From IMG/VR virus record IMGVR_UViG_2541047960_000007, positions 1 to 18,836 of that record: a DNA stretch of 18,836 nucleotides. One strand, 5' to 3'. Source of the DNA: a virus. Lineage: Duplodnaviria > Heunggongvirae > Uroviricota > Caudoviricetes. Shown here one piece after another: positions 1 through 18,836 of this stretch (within the stretch, counting starts at the first letter, position 1; each line of letters starts with the position of its first letter). Under the pieces are notes generated by a model. It was given only the letters and a program-made list of their open reading frames with translations. It searched no databases and was not told the origin of the DNA. The translations under genes and the position numbers were made by a program.

Positions 1-220
<220 letters not shown>

Positions 221-7765: not shown

Positions 7766-7927
7766 GATAATGATTATCATCTACATATCACAACGTGCGT
7801 GGAGGCCATCAAACCACGTCAAATAATCAATTATGACGCAGGTATCGTATTAATTGATCTGCATCAACTTAACGTAAAAACAACTTCAGACAATACAAAT
7901 CAGCGACACTGAATACGGGGCAACCTC

Positions 7928-8161
7928 ATGTCAACGAAGAACAGAACCCGCAGAACAACAACCCGCAACATCCGCTTTCCTAACCAAATGATTGAACAAA
8001 TTAACATCGCTCTTGAGCAAAAAGGGTCCGGGAATTTCTCAGCCTGGGTCATTGAAGCCTGCCGCCGGAGACTGTGCTCAGAAAAAAGAGTTTCTTCTGA
8101 AGCAAACAAAGAAAAGAGTGACATTACTGAATTGCTCAGAAAACAGGTCAGACCAGATTGA
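7928..8161 (+). CDS. ynfO: Small ribbon-helix-helix-like DNA-binding protein (YnfO-like, 77 aa)
   Basis: 77-aa ORF. The segment RNIRFPNQMIEQINIALEQKGSGNFSAWVIEACRRRL fits a beta-strand/helix/helix (Arc/MetJ-like) pattern. Its position just distal to cos matches a small ORF at the lambda right end and ynfO in Qin (from recall). Confidence 0.6.
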   Translation: MSTKNRTRRTTTRNIRFPNQMIEQINIALEQKGSGNFSAWVIEACRRRLCSEKRVSSEANKEKSDITELLRKQVRPD

Positions 8162-8203
8162 AGCAATTTAGATAATCGTGCAGACTACGCCCCCTCATAT
8201 CAC

Positions 8204-8629
8204 ATGGAAGGTTTATCTATGGATCAGGTAGTCATTTTTAAACAAATATTTGATAAAGTTCAAAACGATTTAAACTATCAATGGTTTTATTCTGAGCTAA
8301 AACGTCACAATGTCTCACATTACATTTACTATTTAGCCACAGAGAATGTTCATATTGTATTAAAAAATGATAATACAGTGTTATTAAAGGGCCTAAAAAA
8401 CATTGTGTCTGTCAAATTTTCAAAGGATAGGCATCTTATAGAAACGACCTCTAATAAGCTGAAATCCAGAGAGATCACATTTCAGGAATACAGAAGAAAC
8501 CTTGCTAAAGCAGGAGTTTTTCGGTGGGTTACAAATATCCACGAACAAAAAAGATATTACTATACCTTTGATAATTCATTACTATTTACTGAAAGCATCC
8601 AGAAAACTACACAGATCTTACCACTCTAA
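8204..8629 (+). CDS. ydfO: DUF1398 family protein (YdfO-like)
   Basis: 141-aa ORF; the start may instead be the second ATG at 8219 ([11 protein letters not shown]...). Lambdoid moron of unknown function; synteny with Qin ydfO. Confidence 0.75.
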
Positions 8630-8729
8630 ACCATAACGTCCGGCTTCTCTCACTCCTGAGCCGGACTGCATTGGTTTAATAAAAACCATCAACAATTGTG
8701 ATTTAGATATTCGGAACCATTCAAATATA

Positions 8730-8756
8730 ACAAAACCCCGTAAAAACGAGGTTTAT
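8730..8756. terminator. Putative bidirectional intrinsic terminator between convergent ydfO and gnsB
   Basis: AAAACCCCG-TAAAAA-CGAGGTTT hairpin with T/A-rich flanks on both strands. Confidence 0.4.
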
Positions 8757-8780
8757 GGATAAATTTTATTATTGAATACA

Positions 8781-8954
8781 TCAGATTAAATTAATCTTGA
8801 CATCATAGCTTTCAAGACCCGTCATTTTTTCCCGTGCGGTAAACTGAATACTGGTAACTTCTTTCCCGGTCTTTTTCTTAAGTTCAATAATTTTTTTTGT
8901 TATATATTCAGAAATATCTGCTTCTGCTTTTGTTTTTAAGTTTTCAATATTCAT
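8781..8954 (-). CDS. gnsB: GnsB-like small protein (57 aa); absent from the ORF track because it is under 60 aa
   Basis: Manual translation of the minus strand gives MNIENLKTKAEADISEYITKKIIELKKKTGKEVTSIQFTAREKMTGLESYDVKINLI. An AAGAGGA Shine-Dalgarno lies upstream and a TATAAT -10 element about 60 nt upstream. Confidence 0.8.
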   Translation of the reverse strand: MNIENLKTKAEADISEYITKKIIELKKKTGKEVTSIQFTAREKMTGLESYDVKINLI

Positions 8955-9125
8955 CATTTCCTCTTTTAGTCTGTTATGACTTTCCAGTTACACAGTAAGT
9001 CGATTATATGGTGCAAACGTGTAAAAGATAAGATGAAACATCGCAATAATCAACATACGATAGTCTAAATTTTACACAAACAGACAAAGAGAATTTTCCT
9101 GAATTATCAATGCAATAGCATCAAA

Positions 9126-9356
9126 TCAACTCAAGAGCCTTATTGCTGCTTCCAGAATTTCTTCTGAAGTAACATGTCGATCCGCGGCTACATAAATGAC
9201 TTTATGATCTCCGGTCAGAGATGGAAACCCTGCGGCCATTACAGTAAGGTGTGTTTTTTCGCCATTTGGATATTCACGCATGATGGTGTTAACTCCAGTC
9301 ATCGCTGGCACTACCACTGCTGGTTCAGAGTTAAAAAAAACTATGATTTTTTTCAT
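9126..9356 (-). CDS. ynfN: YnfN-like small protein (76 aa from internal ATG)
   Basis: Track ORF 9126..9398. Start placed at MKKIIVFFNSEP (ATG 9354-9356) because a strong terminator sits at 9400-9422 immediately upstream. Synteny with Qin ynfN. Confidence 0.55.
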   Translation of the reverse strand: MKKIIVFFNSEPAVVVPAMTGVNTIMREYPNGEKTHLTVMAAGFPSLTGDHKVIYVAADRHVTSEEILEAAIRLLS

Positions 9357-9399
9357 GATGTTACCGTAGTATGTGAGTATCCATCGAATAGACACCAAG

Positions 9400-9438
9400 C
9401 AAAAAAGCTCCCGAAGGAGCCTTCATTTTCACTTTTTT
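9400..9438. terminator. Intrinsic terminator downstream of cspI (minus strand), likely bidirectional
   Basis: Minus strand reads GCTCC-TTCG-GGAGC followed by TTTTTT. On the plus strand the same hairpin is followed by a T-rich stretch. Confidence 0.55.
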
Positions 9439-9627
9439 AAATCCAACGACAGACGGCTGGCATTTAAGTATTGTGAAATATTATCAAATGTAATCATCAT
9501 TGATTTACAAAAGATACATTTTGCCCCGAAAGGATTCATGTCAGAAACATCAAAAGATGATGTTCTATACTGGGAACCATGACAACACGGGCATCTAAAG
9601 TGAATATGGTTTGTAATATTGTCTACC

Positions 9628-9840
9628 TCAAAGCGCCACTACATGAACAGCGGCAGGACCTTTAGGTCCGTTCTCAATACCAAATTCAACTTCCTGATTC
9701 TCAGTTAATGTTTTGAAATCGTTGCTCTGAATTGCTGAGAAATGGACAAACACATCTTTGCTGCCATCTTTCGGCGTGATGAAACCAAAACCTTTTTCAG
9801 GGTTAAACCATTTCACTAAACCAGTCATTTTGTTAGACAT
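9628..9840 (-). CDS. cspI: Cold-shock protein, CspA family (CspI-like, 70 aa)
   Basis: [70 protein letters not shown] carries the RNP1/RNP2 motifs (KGFGFI, VFVHF). Confidence 0.9.
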
Positions 9841-10010
9841 AATTATTACCTTTTGAAGAAATTAGCCCTTGGGCAGAATGGTCCGAAAAAAAATATCAGA
9901 GAGAAAAACCAACAAGGAAATCTCAAGAGGTACAAATAATAAAATTATAACAATGACTGCTTCAGATAAATTTGTAACAAACCAGAACACCATTAACGCA
10001 TGATTAACCA
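9841..10010 (-). promoter_or_regulatory. cspI promoter and long 5' UTR with cold-box-like element
   Basis: About 160-nt AT-rich leader, as is typical of cspA-family genes. The 11-mer ATGCGTTAATG (mRNA sense; plus strand 9991-10001) is shared with the cspB leader. Confidence 0.4.
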
Positions 10011-10202
10011 CCCATAGCAAGGATTACTTTTGTAAAGAAAAACACAGCAATGAAAGAATAGCTTTATTTATTAATAAAACGTGTCATTCTGATTAAGACC
10101 TTTTATCTTACCCTTAAGATTTCAGGAATTTTGGCTCATGGAAGAGTCCTTTTTATTTAAATTTTACATTCCGCGATGTAAATGTTCCGATTTAATATTA
10201 CC

Positions 10203-11226
<1,024 letters not shown>

Positions 11227-11230
<4 letters not shown>

Positions 11231-11538
11231 AGATATTTATGATGAGGACGCTCGTGCTTATTGGCAGGATTTTCAATCTTAAAGGAGTACTGATGCTGCA
11301 GATAAGACTCAACTTTTTCTGACAATTTTTCTGCTACTTCCAGGAAGACTTGCCGGACGCTCCTTCTGGCTGCTGCCTCATAAAACTCCAGCGCGGCACC
11401 TTCAACACGGTCCAGCGAGATGTCCAGGTCAAAAATTTCACCGTCAAAGCGTTCTTTGTCCTGTAAGGCTACAGTTACCGTAACTTTATTCTCAAAATTA
11501 CGGACTCCTTTCACAACCAGTTCATAGTCTTGAGTCAT
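11227..11538 (-). CDS. ydfR: DUF1327 family protein (YdfR-like) inside the lysis cassette
   Basis: 103-aa acidic protein. ATGA overlap with the endolysin start and 5 nt downstream of the holin stop. Function unknown. Confidence 0.7.
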
Positions 11539-11542
11539 TGGA

Positions 11543-11758
11543 TTACTCTCCTCTCGCAGCCTTACGCCTGTCTTCTTTAATCTTGAAATAAAGATTTGTC
11601 AGATACGTCAGCAGGCCAAAAACCAGGCTACCCAGCACACCGATTGCAGCCCACTGTGACGGAGTTACTTTATCGAGTAACTGCAATGCCCAGAAACCAG
11701 CATTACCCGCCGATGTGCCATAGGCAACACCTGTTGTTAACTTATCCATTGATTTCAT
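11543..11758 (-). CDS. essQ: Pinholin (phage 21 S-like class II holin, 71 aa) with dual start
   Basis: [71 protein letters not shown] has two TMDs (Gly/Ala-rich TMD1) and a basic C-terminus. The Met1-Lys-Ser-Met4 dual-start motif is present. The 25-codon upstream extension in the track ORF is probably untranslated. Confidence 0.85.
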
Positions 11759-11977
11759 ATCCTCACCCCGATGTACACGGATGGTGCAATATGTTTGAAA
11801 AGATCGGAGTCTACGGGGTAGTTTTGACAGCACACGTTGTTCTCAACGGCGCTAAAAAAACATACACATTAAAAATGTGGGTAATTATTTTGAAAGAAAG
11901 TCATATATAAAATAATAATACGAGAAATGTTTTCATATTTAGTGTACTGTATACGGCCATTTATACAGGAAAAGCCT

Positions 11978-12148
11978 ATGTCAGAACGTAAAAACTCAAA
12001 ATCACGCCGTAATTATCTCGTTAAATGTTCCTGCCCAAACTGCACCCAAGAGTCAGAACACAGTTTTTCAAGAGTACAAAAAGGTGCCCTTTTGATCTGC
12101 CCTCATTGCAACAAAGTATTCCAGACAAATCTTAAAGCTGTAGCCTGA
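11978..12148 (+). CDS. Small zinc-ribbon protein (56 aa), possibly YnfU-like
   Basis: MSERKNSKSRRNYLVKCSCPNCTQESEHSFSRVQKGALLICPHCNKVFQTNLKAVA carries CxxC...CPHC. AGGAAAAG Shine-Dalgarno 7 nt upstream of the ATG at 11978. The track ORF start at 11927 lacks an RBS. Confidence 0.6.
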   Translation: MSERKNSKSRRNYLVKCSCPNCTQESEHSFSRVQKGALLICPHCNKVFQTNLKAVA

Positions 12149-12203
12149 TTGATTTTATTAGTAACAAGTATTTTTTATATTTTAATAATATATTTAAAGC
12201 AGA

Positions 12204-12232
12204 TAATAAAAAACCCGCCTGAGCGGGTTTGA
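12204..12232. terminator. Intrinsic terminator (strong on minus strand, weaker on plus)
   Basis: AAAAAA-CCCGC-CTGA-GCGGG-TTT. On the minus strand the hairpin is followed by a run of seven T. Confidence 0.6.
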
Positions 12233-12511
12233 GATTGTGGTGCTTTTTGTGGGAGTCATCCACTTACGCACTTTGTTTTGCCATGCCAGCAGTTAGCTTC
12301 TGCTGTAAAACTATTCATGCAGCAAACCTGCACTTCACCACAATGGTTAGCATACTTTTCCTGATTAAGATTTTGCCAAATATGCTAGCCATTGTTTCAT
12401 GTATTGGACCTCCTTACTTTTTATTAAAGAGATCCAATATTCACTACTCTGTCCGTATCTCTACTCAGGCATCAGCCTTCTTCGTTATCGTATACAGACG
12501 AGCGATGAATT

Positions 12512-12727
12512 TTAATCAGTAATGATGACATTTGCTGCTGCAGGACCTTTAGCACCACTCTCTATAGAGAAGGTAACCTTTTGACCTTCAAATAAGGTTC
12601 GATAATTATCATTCTGAATCGCAGAAAAATGCACAAACACATCTTTACTACCATCAACAGGAGAAATAAAGCCGAAACCTTTATCAGCGTTAAACCATTT
12701 TACTAAACCAGTCATTTTATTTGACAT
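12512..12727 (-). CDS. cspB: Cold-shock protein, CspA family (CspB-like, 71 aa)
   Basis: [71 protein letters not shown]. Confidence 0.9.
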
Positions 12728-12905
12728 TCTACATTCCTTAACTTGAGCCTTTCGGCATAAATGGTTTGCATAACAGAAACGACTTCGTACTTAATTGGAG
12801 AGACTCAAAGAAGGAATAAGTGAATAACACCTGAAATGAGAACTGCTTTAGTAAACTACTTCGTATATCGTCTGTTCTTCAAACCGACGCAATCATTAAC
12901 GCATA
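12728..12905 (-). promoter_or_regulatory. cspB promoter and long 5' UTR with cold-box-like element; divergent with the cspF leader
   Basis: Leader of about 170 nt. The same ATGCGTTAATG 11-mer (plus strand 12894-12904) sits at a similar distance from the start codon as in cspI. Confidence 0.4.
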
Positions 12906-13027
12906 GTTGAACATATGAAGCAATGTTTATTTTAGACATCCAGCCATCTTCAACCCCATCAAAAAACTATAGCTTTCTTCAGGAACGTGTGTATAGTGCG
13001 CCAAGTTATCAGTATTAAGGAATTTTT

Positions 13028-13240
13028 TTGTCCCGTAAAATGACAGGAATTGTCAAAACCTTTGACGGCAAAAGCGGCAAGGGTCTTATCACCCCATCCG
13101 ATGGTCGTATCGATGTCCAGCTTCATGTTTCAGCGCTCAATCTCCGCGATGCAGAAGAAATTACCACCGGATTACGCGTGGAATTTTGCCGGATAAATGG
13201 TCTGCGTGGCCCTTCAGCTGCCAATGTTTACCTTTCATGA
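13028..13240 (+). CDS. cspF: Cold-shock-like protein (CspF/CspH subfamily, 70 aa), apparent TTG start
   Basis: (M)[74 protein letters not shown] lies 7 nt upstream of the TTG at 13028. The first ATG is 4 codons downstream. Confidence 0.85.
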
Positions 13241-13294
13241 GCTATATTAAAGCTTTAATTTCAGGCCCCATCGGATCACACATGGAGAGTTTTT

Positions 13295-13384
13295 ATGAAT
13301 AACCCCGTCTGTCTTGATGACTGGTTGATTGGCTTTAAAAGCTTATGCTGTACTTTGGCCGTAATAGCTCTGCTAATAATATAA
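13295..13384 (+). CDS. Candidate 29-aa hydrophobic small protein
   Basis: GGAGAG, then 5 nt, then ATG. Translation [29 protein letters not shown] has a single C-terminal hydrophobic helix. Lies between cspF and the terminator at 13534-13565. Confidence 0.3.
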
Positions 13385-13533
13385 TAAGCAGACTCATTGT
13401 GTTTAGGGACATTGTACTGGAAGAAAACATTTTAAACATCAGGCAAATAACCAAGTCACCAGCTAAATAATAAGTTAACAGACATGAGTCCCGGGATGAG
13501 ATTCAACATTACCATTGCCCCATTTAAAGCACA

Positions 13534-13565
13534 AAACCCGCTCATCAGCGGGTTTTCTACTTTTT
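13534..13565. terminator. Intrinsic terminator, bidirectional (cspF-operon terminator and candidate tR' for the late leader)
   Basis: AAACCCGC-TCATCA-GCGGGTTT followed by TTTTCTACTTTTT on the plus strand. On the minus strand the hairpin is followed by TTTTGTGCTTT. Confidence 0.6.
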
Positions 13566-13595
13566 CTTAACGTCGGGTATACAAAGCCCATCGTT

Positions 13596-13630
13596 GAAAA
13601 AATTTTATCCATATTTTTTGAAAAATGCAA
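13596..13630 (-). promoter_or_regulatory. Candidate sigma70 late promoter (pR'-like) immediately downstream of Q
   Basis: Minus strand TTGCAT (13630-13625), 17-nt spacer, TAAAAT (13607-13602). Lies about 32 nt after the Q stop; the terminator hairpin is roughly 45-60 nt downstream of the predicted start site. Confidence 0.4.
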
Positions 13631-13661
13631 ACATCATGTCGCCATCTTCAGCAAAAATCAT

Positions 13662-16359
<2,698 letters not shown>

Positions 16360-16402
16360 TGAGGTGTACTGGCAATAGCGGACACAACCATTTGTTCTTT
16401 TT

Positions 16403-17221
16403 TTAAGCAGCCATCTGATGATATTTTTCCCTGAAGGCTGCCGGGGAGATATTCCCCAGACGAGAGTGACGACGCTGACGATTGTAGAAAATCTCAATGT
16501 ATTCCCGTATTACTGAGATGGCTTCATCCCGGTTATTAAAACGATAGTGGCTCAGGCTCTCATTTTTCAGCGTTCCCCAGAAGCTTTCCATCGGAGCGTT
16601 GTCGTAACAGTTACCTTTACGCGACATTGATGTTTTCAGACCAAACTGCTCCTGTATGACCCGGTAATCGTATGCGCAGTACTGTGAACCTCGATCAGAG
16701 TGGTGGATTAGCCCGGCAGGTGGGCGCTGGCTCCTGAGCGCCATAAACAGGGCTTTACCTGTCAGCTCTTTTGTCATGCGCTCTCCCATGGCGTAGCCGA
16801 CAATTTCGCACGTATAAACATCTTTGATGCCAGCGAGGTACAACCATCCCTCCTGTGTGGCAACATACGTCAGGTCCGCCACCCAGACCTGATTTGGTGC
16901 TGTAGGAGTGAACGTCTGGTTCAGCAGATTTGGCGCAACTGGCAGATTGTGGTTCGGGTTCGTAGTCGCTCTGAACTTGCGTTTCTGCTTACAGCGTAGC
17001 CTTAGCTCCTTACGAAGACGTGCCAGTCGGTCACGACCAACGATGATGCCATTCTCTGCCAGCTCCGTCTGGAGCCGCCGGGTTCCATATGTTTCGCGAG
17101 TGCGGATATGTGCCACCTTAATCTCCAGTTTTAGCCGCTCATCACTTTGTTTTCTGTCTGAGGGTTCATGCTGTACCCAGTTGTAATAACCGCTCCTGGA
17201 TACACCAAATACCTGACACAT
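16403..17221 (-). CDS. IS3-family transposase OrfB (IS600), expressed as an OrfAB fusion by -1 frameshift
   Basis: DDE catalytic region (..HSDRGSQY.., ..SRKGNCYDNAPMESFWGTLK..). The orfB frame is -1 relative to orfA, with an A7G slippery run at 17301-17308 inside the orfA 3' end. Confidence 0.9.
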   Translation of the reverse strand: MCQVFGVSRSGYYNWVQHEPSDRKQSDERLKLEIKVAHIRTRETYGTRRLQTELAENGIIVGRDRLARLRKELRLRCKQKRKFRATTNPNHNLPVAPNLLNQTFTPTAPNQVWVADLTYVATQEGWLYLAGIKDVYTCEIVGYAMGERMTKELTGKALFMALRSQRPPAGLIHHSDRGSQYCAYDYRVIQEQFGLKTSMSRKGNCYDNAPMESFWGTLKNESLSHYRFNNRDEAISVIREYIEIFYNRQRRHSRLGNISPAAFREKYHQMAA

Positions 17222-17256
17222 CGCTTCAATGGGAAATTGTTGTCGCCATTGTTCGA

Positions 17257-17559
17257 TTAACGCGTATTTTTCAGCGACTCCTGTGCAAAATACGCTGTTG
17301 CTTTTTTTAATATATCTCGCTCAAGGCGAGCTTCATTTAACGCCTTACGCAGTTGCAGAATTTCAGATTCCAGTTCAGCCACCGTGCGGGAACCAGGAGT
17401 ACCGAGCCCTTTTCTGGCGGCGGTAACCCATTGTCCTAAAGTGCCTTCAGGAAGAGATAATCGGGAAGCGCCTTCGCTGATCGAAAGTTGATTTTCAAGA
17501 ACCGTTCTGACAGCTTCGGCTTTGAACTCTTTAGAGTAACGTTGGTTTTTTCTGCTCAT
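17257..17559 (-). CDS. IS3-family transposase OrfA (IS600)
   Basis: 100 aa with an HTH and leucine-zipper-like region (MSRKNQRYSKEFKAEAVRTVLENQLSISEGASRL...LERDILKKATAYFAQ). Confidence 0.9.
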   Translation of the reverse strand: MSRKNQRYSKEFKAEAVRTVLENQLSISEGASRLSLPEGTLGQWVTAARKGLGTPGSRTVAELESEILQLRKALNEARLERDILKKATAYFAQESLKNTR

Positions 17560-17623
17560 TATTAGCTCCTTCTGATGCCATTCTATTTCAGGAAGGAGTG
17601 TCCGTTAAACTCAGGCTACCTCA

Positions 17624-18836
17624 GTCAGCTTTAGGTTTAACATAGTATTTTGAGCGTAAATCAATACGGGCATTATCCACTCGTTCATGGACACTCTTTT
17701 CATCATCCAGTGGTATAGGCTCCGGGCCATCAACATACTTTTCCCAGCCCAGCGCTTTCCCGTCATACAGAACGTTAATTTCACCGTCAAAGTTCTCGCA
17801 TACAGTAACAACCGAATGCCTAAGTCGATATCCCCGGCCCTCACTGCGTACCTGAAACGCACTGCTTTTGTACTGGAAAGTGAGATTTTTAGACAGAACG
17901 CGCTTCGCCTGTAGGCTGAAGATATAACCCAGTTCCTCTTCAGAATGGTGCACATCAAGATGAGCATTATCAGTAGTACGAGGCGACGTAGCGAACCGGT
18001 TGTTATAGGCTTCAATAAAGGTCGGCAACCATGCATTTGCTGTTTCAATATCACTGATATTCTGAAGCCGCATTTCTTTGACCAGCCTGTCCTGTAGTGT
18101 CTGATTGGCGCGCTCTACCCGCCCTTTTGCCTGCGGGCTGTTGGCATGGATTGGCTCGATGCCCAGTGTCTTTATCGCACGAGTGAACTGGGTCAGCTCA
18201 CCTTCCCGCTCTGGGTTATTTACCCTGAATATACTGTGTCTATCAGAGTAGAGAGCGAGCGGTACGCCATGATCATTAAGGTAACCCCGGAGGGTTTCCA
18301 TGTAAGCCCGGGTTGTTTCAGCAGGCACAAAACGCAACGCCATCAACGCACTGGTGGCATCATCAATGAAAACGATCAGTGTACATCTGGGGCCTCGATT
18401 TTCAAACCAGTCATGAGGTGAGCCATCAATCTGGATCAGTTCACCGTAAGATGGTCGTCGCATGCGGCGTTGATATATACGGGCAATTTTACGACGGCGT
18501 TCACGCCATAACCCCTCTTCTATCATCCACTTTCTGAGAGTTTCAACGGATAAAGATAAACCGTGTATCTCGCGCAATTTTTCGCACGCAAACGTAGGTC
18601 CAAAATCAGCGTAACGGCCTTTGAGGAGTGAAATTACTGTTGCTCTGAATTCAGTAGAAAAGGAATTATTAGGACGCTTTCCACGTCGGTGGGAAACCAG
18701 ACCAGAAGGCCCTTCATTTCTATACCGTTGCACCTGAACCGCCCCGGGTTTCCTGGAGAGTGTTTTATCTGTGAACTCAGGCTGCCAGATCATCGTTTCC
18801 GATGGAAGCATAATAAGCTTTTTCTGCTTCTGCCGG
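17624..18836 (-). pseudogene. DDE (rve/integrase-core) transposase gene of another IS (IS481/ISNCY-like), 3' end interrupted by IS600; 5' end may extend beyond the window
   Basis: Translation carries D (LIQIDGS), D (LYSDRHS) and E (KGRVERANQ) motifs. Its stop codon TGA (17621-17623) is supplied by the terminal TCA of IS600. The frame stays open upstream of the first ATG to the window edge, and there is no clear RBS. Confidence 0.65.

What the first reader, a model, noticed from the sequence alone, without database searches (positions are those of the whole stretch)
16357..17626. IS600 lacks a target-site duplication and abuts two truncated genes, marking an IS-mediated deletion or rearrangement boundary
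IS600 (1264 bp, ends TGAGGT…ACCTCA) is flanked by TAA on the Q side and GTC on the other, so there is no 3-bp duplication. On one side Q begins at about codon 6. On the other side, a different transposase gene runs straight into the IS end, and the IS terminus supplies its stop codon. The simplest reading is that recombination or an adjacent deletion at this IS removed the Q 5' end, its promoter and the whole early/immunity region, replacing them with unrelated IS-rich DNA.
Basis: seen in the sequence. Interest (0 to 1): 0.5.

Follow-up and report, generated by a model that had tools for sequence, protein, structure and literature searches.

The report
IS600-by-IS600 recombination deletion in Qin prophage
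The copy of the mobile element IS600 in this defective E. coli prophage lacks matching flanks because two identical IS600 copies, both still present in a sister strain, recombined and deleted the 5.4 kb between them; this is a clearly documented but ordinary event.

Summary
IS600 lies at 16360-17623 (1264 bp) and is flanked by TAA and GTC, so it has no 3-bp duplication. On one side it abuts the Q antiterminator from codon 6. On the other it abuts an ISNCY transposase relic whose stop codon is the last three bases of the IS.

Comparison with three genomes explains this. E. coli CE10, a close relative, carries two identical IS600 copies in the same orientation in the same Qin-type prophage. One sits in Q codon 6, flanked TAA|TAA. 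The other sits 30 codons before the end of the ISNCY/ydfW reading frame, flanked GTC|GTC. Strains MS 21-1 and K-12 DH5alpha have both sites empty. The window, IAI39 and N32 combine the left flank of the first copy with the right flank of the second.

The cause is therefore recombination between directly repeated IS600 copies. It removed 6,623 bp: 5,359 bp plus one IS. The lost genes are Q codons 1-5, ydfU, a small ORF, rem, hokD, relE, relB, ydfV, flxA and the ydfW tail.

Two details are wrong: the neighbouring DNA is native prophage DNA, and the immunity region was not removed by this event.

This is a textbook mechanism and of low interest.

The parts
13662..13912 (-). C-terminal fragment of the Q antiterminator (ydfT), from about codon 168 to the stop codon
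   Evidence: Collinear with MS 21-1 ydfT. Pfam PF03589, E=1.1e-25. Annotated as a partial antitermination protein in IAI39.
13913..15866 (+). IS100 (IS21 family; istA 13999-15021, istB 15018-15800) inserted in Q around codons 168-170. It is flanked by the direct repeat CAATCC (13907-13912 and 15867-15872). This is a simple insertion and serves as an internal control.
   Evidence: The site is empty in MS 21-1.
15867..16359 (-). N-terminal fragment of Q, codons 6-170. Codons 1-5 and everything upstream are missing.
   Evidence: 100% identical to MS 21-1 L003 17042-17535. The translation begins LPKYYSPK, which is residue 6 onward. PF03589, E=1.3e-22.
16357..16359 (.). TAA: one half of the target-site duplication of ancestral IS600 copy A (Q codon 6, Leu TTA)
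   Evidence: CE10 copy A is flanked TAA|TAA. MS 21-1 and DH5alpha have a single TAA at the empty site.
16360..17623 (-). IS600, 1264 bp, a recombinant of two identical ancestral copies. orfA is 17257-17559, orfB is 16403-17221, the A7G slippery site is 17301-17308, and the terminal inverted repeats begin TGAGGT.
17624..17626 (.). GTC: one half of the target-site duplication of ancestral IS600 copy B
   Evidence: CE10 copy B is flanked GTC|GTC. MS 21-1 and DH5alpha have a single GTC at the empty site.
17624..18734 (-). ISNCY-family (IS1202-group-like) transposase relic native to Qin-type prophages. It lacks its last 30 codons (the ydfW tail, lost in the deletion) and about 47 N-terminal codons (cut by the next IS).
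   Evidence: NF033594 at 426.7 bits. 100% identical to MS 21-1 L003 21576-22686. Full reading frame seen in MS 21-1. Present in K-12 DH5alpha Qin.
18735..18836 (-). Terminal 102 bp of another IS3-family (IS629-like) element, beginning TGAACCGCCCCGGG. It supplies the ATG (18811) of the chimeric 396-aa ORF 17621-18811.
   Evidence: 100% identical to the IS ends at L001 14905-15006 and L002 6001-6102. The junction itself is found in no searched collection.

Best explanation
The IS600 at 16360-17623 is what remains after homologous recombination between two identical IS600 copies in the same orientation. These copies had inserted independently into a Qin-type defective prophage. Copy A inserted into codon 6 of the Q antiterminator gene and duplicated TAA. 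Copy B inserted 30 codons before the end of the ISNCY/ydfW reading frame and duplicated GTC. A crossover anywhere within the 1264-bp identity looped out or unequally exchanged the intervening 5,359 bp plus one IS copy, 6,623 bp in total. One IS600 was left, carrying the left flank of A (TAA) and the right flank of B (GTC).

Shown here: both precursor insertions with their own duplications, both empty sites, the hybrid product, and the absence of the reciprocal junctions in the product genomes.

Inferred: that the exchange was host (RecA-type) homologous recombination; that it happened once, in a common ancestor of IAI39, N32 and the window's strain; and that the excised circle or duplication partner was lost.

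Consequence: the prophage lost Q codons 1-5, ydfU, a small ORF, rem, hokD, relBE, ydfV, flxA and the ydfW tail. Q was already non-functional, being split by both IS600 and IS100.
For: 1. In CE10 locus L002, IS600 copy A (1222-2485) is flanked GGTAA|...|TAAGGC and copy B (7845-9108) is flanked GGTC|...|GTCAGC. Both are on the same strand and both are 1264/1264 identical to the window copy.

2. The window and IAI39 show left flank ...GGTAA and right flank GTCAGC..., that is A-left plus B-right.

3. MS 21-1 (L003) and K-12 DH5alpha (L006) carry the uninterrupted sites GGTAAGGCTTC and GATGGTCAGCTT, 4,040 bp apart in MS 21-1 (measured there only), with the Qin gene order ydfT-ydfU-rem-hokD-relEB-ydfV-flxA-ydfW-ISNCY in both.

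4. Junction census in 5,426 complete E. coli genomes: A-left and B-right occur in exactly CE10, IAI39 and N32. A-right and B-left occur only in CE10.

5. Other IS600 copies carry normal 3-bp duplications, GTG|GTG and CTC|CTC. IS100 in the same gene has its own direct repeat. The missing duplication is therefore specific to this copy.

6. N32 shows that this IS600 remains a recombination substrate. The same two flanks now sit about 198 kb apart on inverted IS600 copies, each paired with one half of a split GTT duplication in a DUF3313 gene.

7. Recombination between homologous IS copies is a measured and frequent source of deletions in E. coli (PMC5009759).
Against: The two precursor copies are identical, so the crossover point cannot be mapped. 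RecA dependence cannot be shown from sequence. The window comes from a fourth strain that I could not identify: it has 10 mismatches to IAI39 over 10.9 kb and a unique junction at 18734/18735. Its reads therefore cannot be checked, and absence of the reciprocal junctions elsewhere in its genome is not shown. CE10 is a living relative that kept the ancestral arrangement, not the literal ancestor.
Confidence: 0.93

Rival explanations
1. Assembly collapse. The source strain really has the CE10-like two-copy arrangement, and the assembler threaded a single path through the 1264-bp identical repeat, skipping the 5.4-kb interval.
For: The window's origin is unknown. Both window ends fall inside multi-copy IS fragments (1-220 and 18735-18836), as often happens at the ends of draft contigs. 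Two 100% identical copies 5.4 kb apart are the kind of repeat that gets collapsed.
Against: The same join exists in the finished IAI39 chromosome. N32 and IAI39 lack the reciprocal junctions genome-wide, so the deletion genotype is real in this lineage. The window also runs straight through IS100 and IS600, which an assembly that breaks at repeats would not do.
Confidence: 0.04
2. Transposase-mediated adjacent deletion. A single IS600 sitting in Q attacked a nearby target in the ISNCY relic by intramolecular transposition and deleted the interval. No second copy was ever present in this lineage.
For: This would also leave one IS with the old flank (TAA) on one side and a new, unrelated flank on the other.
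Against: The right breakpoint coincides to the nucleotide with CE10's copy B, which carries its own complete GTC|GTC duplication, the mark of an independent simple insertion. The lineages also share the IS100 insertion and both outer junctions. From established knowledge, IS3-family elements move by copy-out/paste-in through a circular intermediate, which leaves the donor site intact and does not typically make adjacent deletions.
Confidence: 0.02
3. One reading: one IS-associated event removed Q's 5' end, its promoter and the entire early/immunity region, and juxtaposed foreign IS-rich DNA.
For: Q's 5' end and upstream genes are indeed gone, and the neighbourhood is IS-dense, with IS100, IS600, ISNCY and an IS629-like element.
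Against: The ISNCY relic is the native neighbour 4,040 bp away in the IS-free MS 21-1 Qin prophage, and the same gene order is present in K-12 DH5alpha. The replication-region genes still follow it in IAI39, and in K-12 dicC/dicA follow as well. Whatever removed further early genes in these strains involves other IS elements, not this IS600.
Confidence: 0.01

Closest known systems
Deletion by homologous recombination between directly repeated IS copies, as measured for IS1 and IS5 in E. coli mutation-accumulation lines (PMC5009759)
   Same: There are two same-orientation identical IS copies. The interval plus one copy is lost. The surviving copy has non-matching (hybrid) target-site flanks.
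   Different: Here the element is IS600, the substrate is a Qin-type defective prophage, and the event is a natural polymorphism among O7:K1-related strains. In K-12, where IS600 is single-copy, that paper recorded no IS600 events.
IS600-flanked Shiga-toxin region of Shigella dysenteriae 1: tandem amplification and deletion of stx (McDonough & Butterton 1999, Mol Microbiol 34:1058). The reference is as listed in PMC7819885; the mechanistic content is from my own knowledge.
   Same: IS600 copies sit inside a defective lambdoid prophage close to the late-regulatory region and act as portable homology for deletion or amplification.
   Different: It is a different prophage with different cargo. 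There is no toxin gene here. Only the deletion outcome is seen, plus a later inversion in N32.
Qin cryptic prophage of E. coli K-12
   Same: The gene order is the same: nohA, ynfO, ydfO, gnsB, ynfN, cspI, rzpQ, rrrQ, ydfR, essQ, cspB, cspF, ydfT(Q), ydfU, rem, hokD, relEB, ydfV, flxA, ydfW, ISNCY relic.
   Different: The window's version still carries lambda-like head genes. Its Q is disrupted by IS100 and IS600, and it lacks the ydfU-flxA block.

Membership tests
IS600 (IS3 family, IS3 group) | 1264-bp element with near-identity to reference IS600 | tested here: met
   1264/1264 identity to many copies annotated 'IS3-like element IS600 family transposase'.
IS600 (IS3 family, IS3 group) | Imperfect terminal inverted repeats ending 5'-TG...CA-3' | tested here: met
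   One end reads TGAGGTGTACTGGCAATAGCGGACAC. The reverse complement of the other end reads TGAGGTAGCCTGAGTTTAACGGACAC.
IS600 (IS3 family, IS3 group) | orfA and orfB joined by a -1 programmed frameshift at an A6G-type slippery site, with a DDE transposase | tested here: met
   orfA is 100 aa and orfB is 272 aa. NF033516 transpos_IS3 covers profile positions 1-86 in orfA and 106-369 in orfB, the latter at 335 bits. AAAAAAAG lies at 17301-17308 in the overlap. RefSeq annotates the identical copy with a programmed frameshift.
IS600 (IS3 family, IS3 group) | 3-bp target-site duplication at a simple insertion | tested here: not met
   This copy is flanked TAA and GTC. Four other identical copies have perfect 3-bp duplications. 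The failure reflects a rearrangement after insertion, not a different element.
Deletion by recombination between direct IS repeats | A precursor arrangement exists with two same-orientation copies at exactly the two breakpoints, each with its own duplication | tested here: met
   CE10 L002 1222-2485 (TAA|TAA) and 7845-9108 (GTC|GTC), same strand.
Deletion by recombination between direct IS repeats | The product carries the left flank of one copy and the right flank of the other, and the reciprocal junctions are absent from the product genome | tested here: met
   The hybrid flanks are in the window, IAI39 and N32. The A-right and B-left junctions are found only in CE10 among 5,426 genomes. For the window's own genome outside the window this cannot be tested.
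Deletion by recombination between direct IS repeats | Dependence on host homologous recombination (RecA) | not testable with these tools
   This needs a genetic assay, for example the deletion frequency in CE10 recA+ versus recA-.
Transposase-mediated adjacent deletion | The new junction lies at a target not previously occupied by the IS | tested here: not met
   The junction is base-identical to the pre-existing copy B insertion site in CE10.
Lambdoid Q antiterminator (Pfam PF03589) | Significant match to the Antiterm domain and collinearity with ydfT | tested here: met
   PF03589 gives E=1.3e-22 and 1.1e-25 for the two fragments. The N-terminal fragment 15866-16359 is 100% identical to MS 21-1 ydfT, and the C-terminal fragment is collinear with it.
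ISNCY-family transposase (NCBIfam NF033594) | Score above the curated cut-off | tested here: met
   426.7 bits against a cut-off of 250, covering profile positions 31-365 of 368. The ends of the element were not looked for.

The most novel reading that the evidence does not exclude
The IS600 copies nested in this Qin-type prophage could act as a recurrent recombination hub in the O7:K1 / IAI39-CE10-N32 extraintestinal lineage. They would first have removed the relBE-hokD toxin-antitoxin block and flxA, then driven a roughly 198-kb chromosomal inversion in N32. Loss of the toxin-antitoxin modules might be selected, for example through altered stress or persistence behaviour, rather than neutral decay.
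Probability: 0.07. Interest if true: 0.25.

Novelty: already known. Interest (0 to 1): 0.1.

Why it matters
The practical value is small. The finding shows that a missing target-site duplication reliably flags a rearrangement after insertion. It provides a lineage marker that separates IAI39, N32 and the window's strain from CE10. It explains several odd annotated pseudogenes in RefSeq: Q 'missing C-terminus', ISNCY 'missing C-terminus', and a chimeric 396-aa ORF. It also documents loss of the relBE and hokD toxin-antitoxin loci from a cryptic prophage. It does not reveal a new mechanism or system.

Tried and rejected
1. I looked for the window's source strain through the unusual ISNCY|IS629-like junction at 18734/18735. 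No complete E. coli genome covers it. There was no exact match in genome contigs or metagenome contigs. The source remains unidentified.

2. I considered that the window is IAI39 itself. This was rejected: there are 10 mismatches over 7800-18734, and the sequence differs beyond 18734.

3. I considered a single-IS adjacent deletion. This was rejected because the breakpoint coincides exactly with CE10 copy B, which has its own duplication.

4. I considered that the ISNCY transposase is foreign DNA brought in by the event. This was rejected: it is at the same place in K-12 DH5alpha and MS 21-1.

5. I tried to map the crossover point inside IS600. This is impossible because the two CE10 copies are identical.

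6. An Rfam scan of the window found only two cspA thermoregulators and nothing at the IS.

7. A literature search found no paper describing this particular deletion.

Full report
**1. Observation**

Reading the sequence and locating the element ends places IS600 at window 16360-17623. It is 1264 bp and runs from TGAGGT to ACCTCA. It is 100% identical to copies annotated 'IS3-like element IS600 family transposase' in many complete E. coli genomes.

It has the expected anatomy:
- orfA at 17257-17559 and orfB at 16403-17221, both on the minus strand.
- Both ORFs match NCBIfam transpos_IS3, with orfB scoring 335 bits.
- An AAAAAAAG slippery site at 17301-17308 in the orfA/orfB overlap.
- Imperfect terminal inverted repeats.

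The three bases outside the ends are TAA (16357-16359) and GTC (17624-17626), so there is no duplication.

The Q-side claim is exact. In the intact 250-aa YdfT/Q of strain MS 21-1, TAA is the reverse complement of Leu6 (TTA), and the window retains codon 6 onward. Both Q fragments match Pfam PF03589.

The other-side claim is also exact. An ISNCY-family transposase frame scores 426.7 bits against NF033594, whose cut-off is 250. It reads on the minus strand up to 17624 and stops at TGA, which is the reverse complement of IS600 bases 17621-17623.

**2. Is the missing duplication meaningful?**

Yes. Four other IS600 copies of identical sequence have perfect 3-bp duplications: TAA|TAA and GTC|GTC in CE10, GTG|GTG in CE10 and CTC|CTC in IAI39. 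IS100, which also interrupts Q in the window (13913-15866), carries its own direct repeat CAATCC around a site that is empty in MS 21-1. The anomaly is therefore specific to this IS600 copy.

**3. What happened**

The window is a Qin-type defective prophage. Its gene order is nohA, ynfO, ydfO, gnsB, ynfN, cspI, rzpQ, rrrQ, ydfR, essQ, cspB, cspF, Q. Four comparison genomes define a series.

| State | Strains | Arrangement |
|---|---|---|
| a. IS-free | MS 21-1 (L003), K-12 DH5alpha (L006) | Q-ydfU-ORF-rem-hokD-relE-relB-ydfV-flxA-ydfW-ISNCY relic, with single TAA and single GTC sites (4,040 bp apart in MS 21-1) |
| b. Two copies | CE10 (L002) | Two IS600 copies, same orientation, identical sequence. 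Copy A at the TAA site (TAA|TAA), copy B at the GTC site (GTC|GTC). 5,359 bp between them, the extra 1,319 bp being an IS3-family element next to flxA |
| c. Hybrid | IAI39 (L001) and the window | One IS600 with A's left flank and B's right flank |
| d. Hybrid plus inversion | N32 | The same two flanks on two inverted IS600 copies about 198 kb apart, each paired with one GTT of a split duplication in a DUF3313 gene |

State d is what an inversion between the hybrid copy and a third, inverted IS600 would produce.

A junction census over 5,426 complete genomes agrees. Q|IS600 and IS600|ISNCY occur only in CE10, IAI39 and N32. The reciprocal junctions IS600|Q 5' end-ydfU and ydfW|IS600 occur only in CE10.

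**4. Mechanism**

The simplest account, which I hold with about 0.93 confidence, has four steps:
- Two independent IS600 insertions occurred in an ancestor of this lineage.
- A crossover took place within the 1264-bp identity between the direct repeats.
- That removed 6,623 bp (5,359 bp plus one IS).
- The product was inherited by IAI39, N32 and the window's strain.

The insertions, empty sites, hybrid product and missing reciprocal junctions are shown. Host RecA dependence, the single origin and the fate of the excised DNA are inferred. Recombination between homologous IS copies is a measured and common source of deletions in E. coli (PMC5009759). IS600 in defective prophages is also familiar from the S. 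dysenteriae stx region (reference in PMC7819885; details from my own knowledge).

**5. Rivals**

- A transposase-mediated adjacent deletion would need to hit the very nucleotide where CE10 has an independent insertion with its own duplication. I rate it 0.02.
- Collapse of two identical copies by an assembler cannot be excluded for the window's own, unidentified source. However, the same join is in the finished IAI39 chromosome, and the reciprocal junctions are missing genome-wide in IAI39 and N32. I rate it 0.04.
That claim was loss of the entire early/immunity region and replacement by unrelated DNA. The ISNCY relic is native Qin DNA, present even in K-12, where the replication genes and dicC/dicA follow it. 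The replication-region genes are still present beyond the relic in IAI39.

**6. What was lost and what it means**

The deletion removed:
- Q codons 1-5 and the short Q-ydfU spacer
- ydfU (DUF968)
- a 92-aa ORF
- rem
- hokD
- relE and relB
- ydfV
- flxA
- the last 30 codons of the ISNCY frame, which include the in-frame 'ydfW' ORF

Q was already dead, split by IS600 at codon 6 and by IS100 at codons 168-170. The functional novelty is nil. The prophage is simply decaying further and has lost two toxin-antitoxin loci.

**7. Comparison with the known, and verdict**

The element is a bona fide IS600; every defining feature is met except the duplication, and that exception is explained. The event is a textbook IS-by-IS recombination deletion. 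I found no paper describing this particular deletion, but the junction is in public RefSeq genomes and the kind of event is fully known.

Novelty: already known. Interest: 0.1. The observation is confirmed and the interpretation is partly supported.

Noticed in passing
window 18734/18735 (and 18735-18836): The ISNCY relic is cut at its 5' side by the end of an IS629-like IS3-family element (TGAACCGCCCCGGG...). Relative to IAI39, either this is a new insertion or 3,969 bp (L001 10936-14904: the rest of ISNCY, a methyltransferase, DUF977, an O-like ORF and YdaT') has been deleted next to the IS copy that sits at YdaT in IAI39 and CE10. The junction was found in none of 5,426 complete E. coli genomes, nor in genome contigs or metagenome contigs. 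The window ends too soon to decide.
   Followed up: partly
window 17621-18811 (minus strand): The 396-aa ORF is doubly chimeric. Its ATG and first 26 codons come from the IS629-like element end, its body is the ISNCY relic, and its stop codon is the IS600 terminus.
   Followed up: yes
window 13913-15866: IS100 (IS21 family, istA/istB) is inserted in Q at codons 168-170 with the direct repeat CAATCC. The insertion is shared with IAI39, CE10 and N32, so Q is interrupted twice.
   Followed up: yes
L004 22372-23635 and L005 5001-6264 (E. coli N32): N32 carries Q-TAA|IS600|GTT-DUF3313'-tehB and DUF3313'-GTT|IS600|GTC-ISNCY on inverted IS600 copies about 198 kb apart. This indicates a large chromosomal inversion through a third IS600 after the deletion.
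   Followed up: partly
L003 21483-21632 and L006 5032-5181 (ydfW): The K-12 'protein YdfW' ORF lies in the same frame as, and inside the 3' end of, the ISNCY transposase reading frame. In MS 21-1 that frame reads without a stop from MIKETV... to ...DKKD*. ydfW therefore looks like the tail of the transposase relic rather than a separate gene.
   Followed up: partly
window 1-220: The window begins inside the end of another IS3-family element inserted in the phage FI gene, as in N32. Both window ends therefore lie in multi-copy IS fragments. The two pieces are not copies of the same end.
   Followed up: partly
window 11395-11422: There is a cluster of 7 mismatches within 28 bp against both IAI39 and N32, in the ydfR region. 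The surrounding 10.9 kb otherwise has only 3 differences from IAI39. This could be a small recombination or gene-conversion patch.
   Followed up: no
window 9601-9986 and 12496-12888 (minus strand): Two Rfam cspA thermoregulator matches (112.8 and 158.8 bits) lie upstream of the prophage cold-shock genes cspI and cspB.
   Followed up: no
window 15844-16497 (minus strand): A 217-aa ORF starts at a TTG inside the IS600 end and reads in frame into Q codon 6. RefSeq extends the Q pseudogene 51 bp into IS600 in IAI39. It is unlikely to matter, because IS100 interrupts Q downstream.
   Followed up: no
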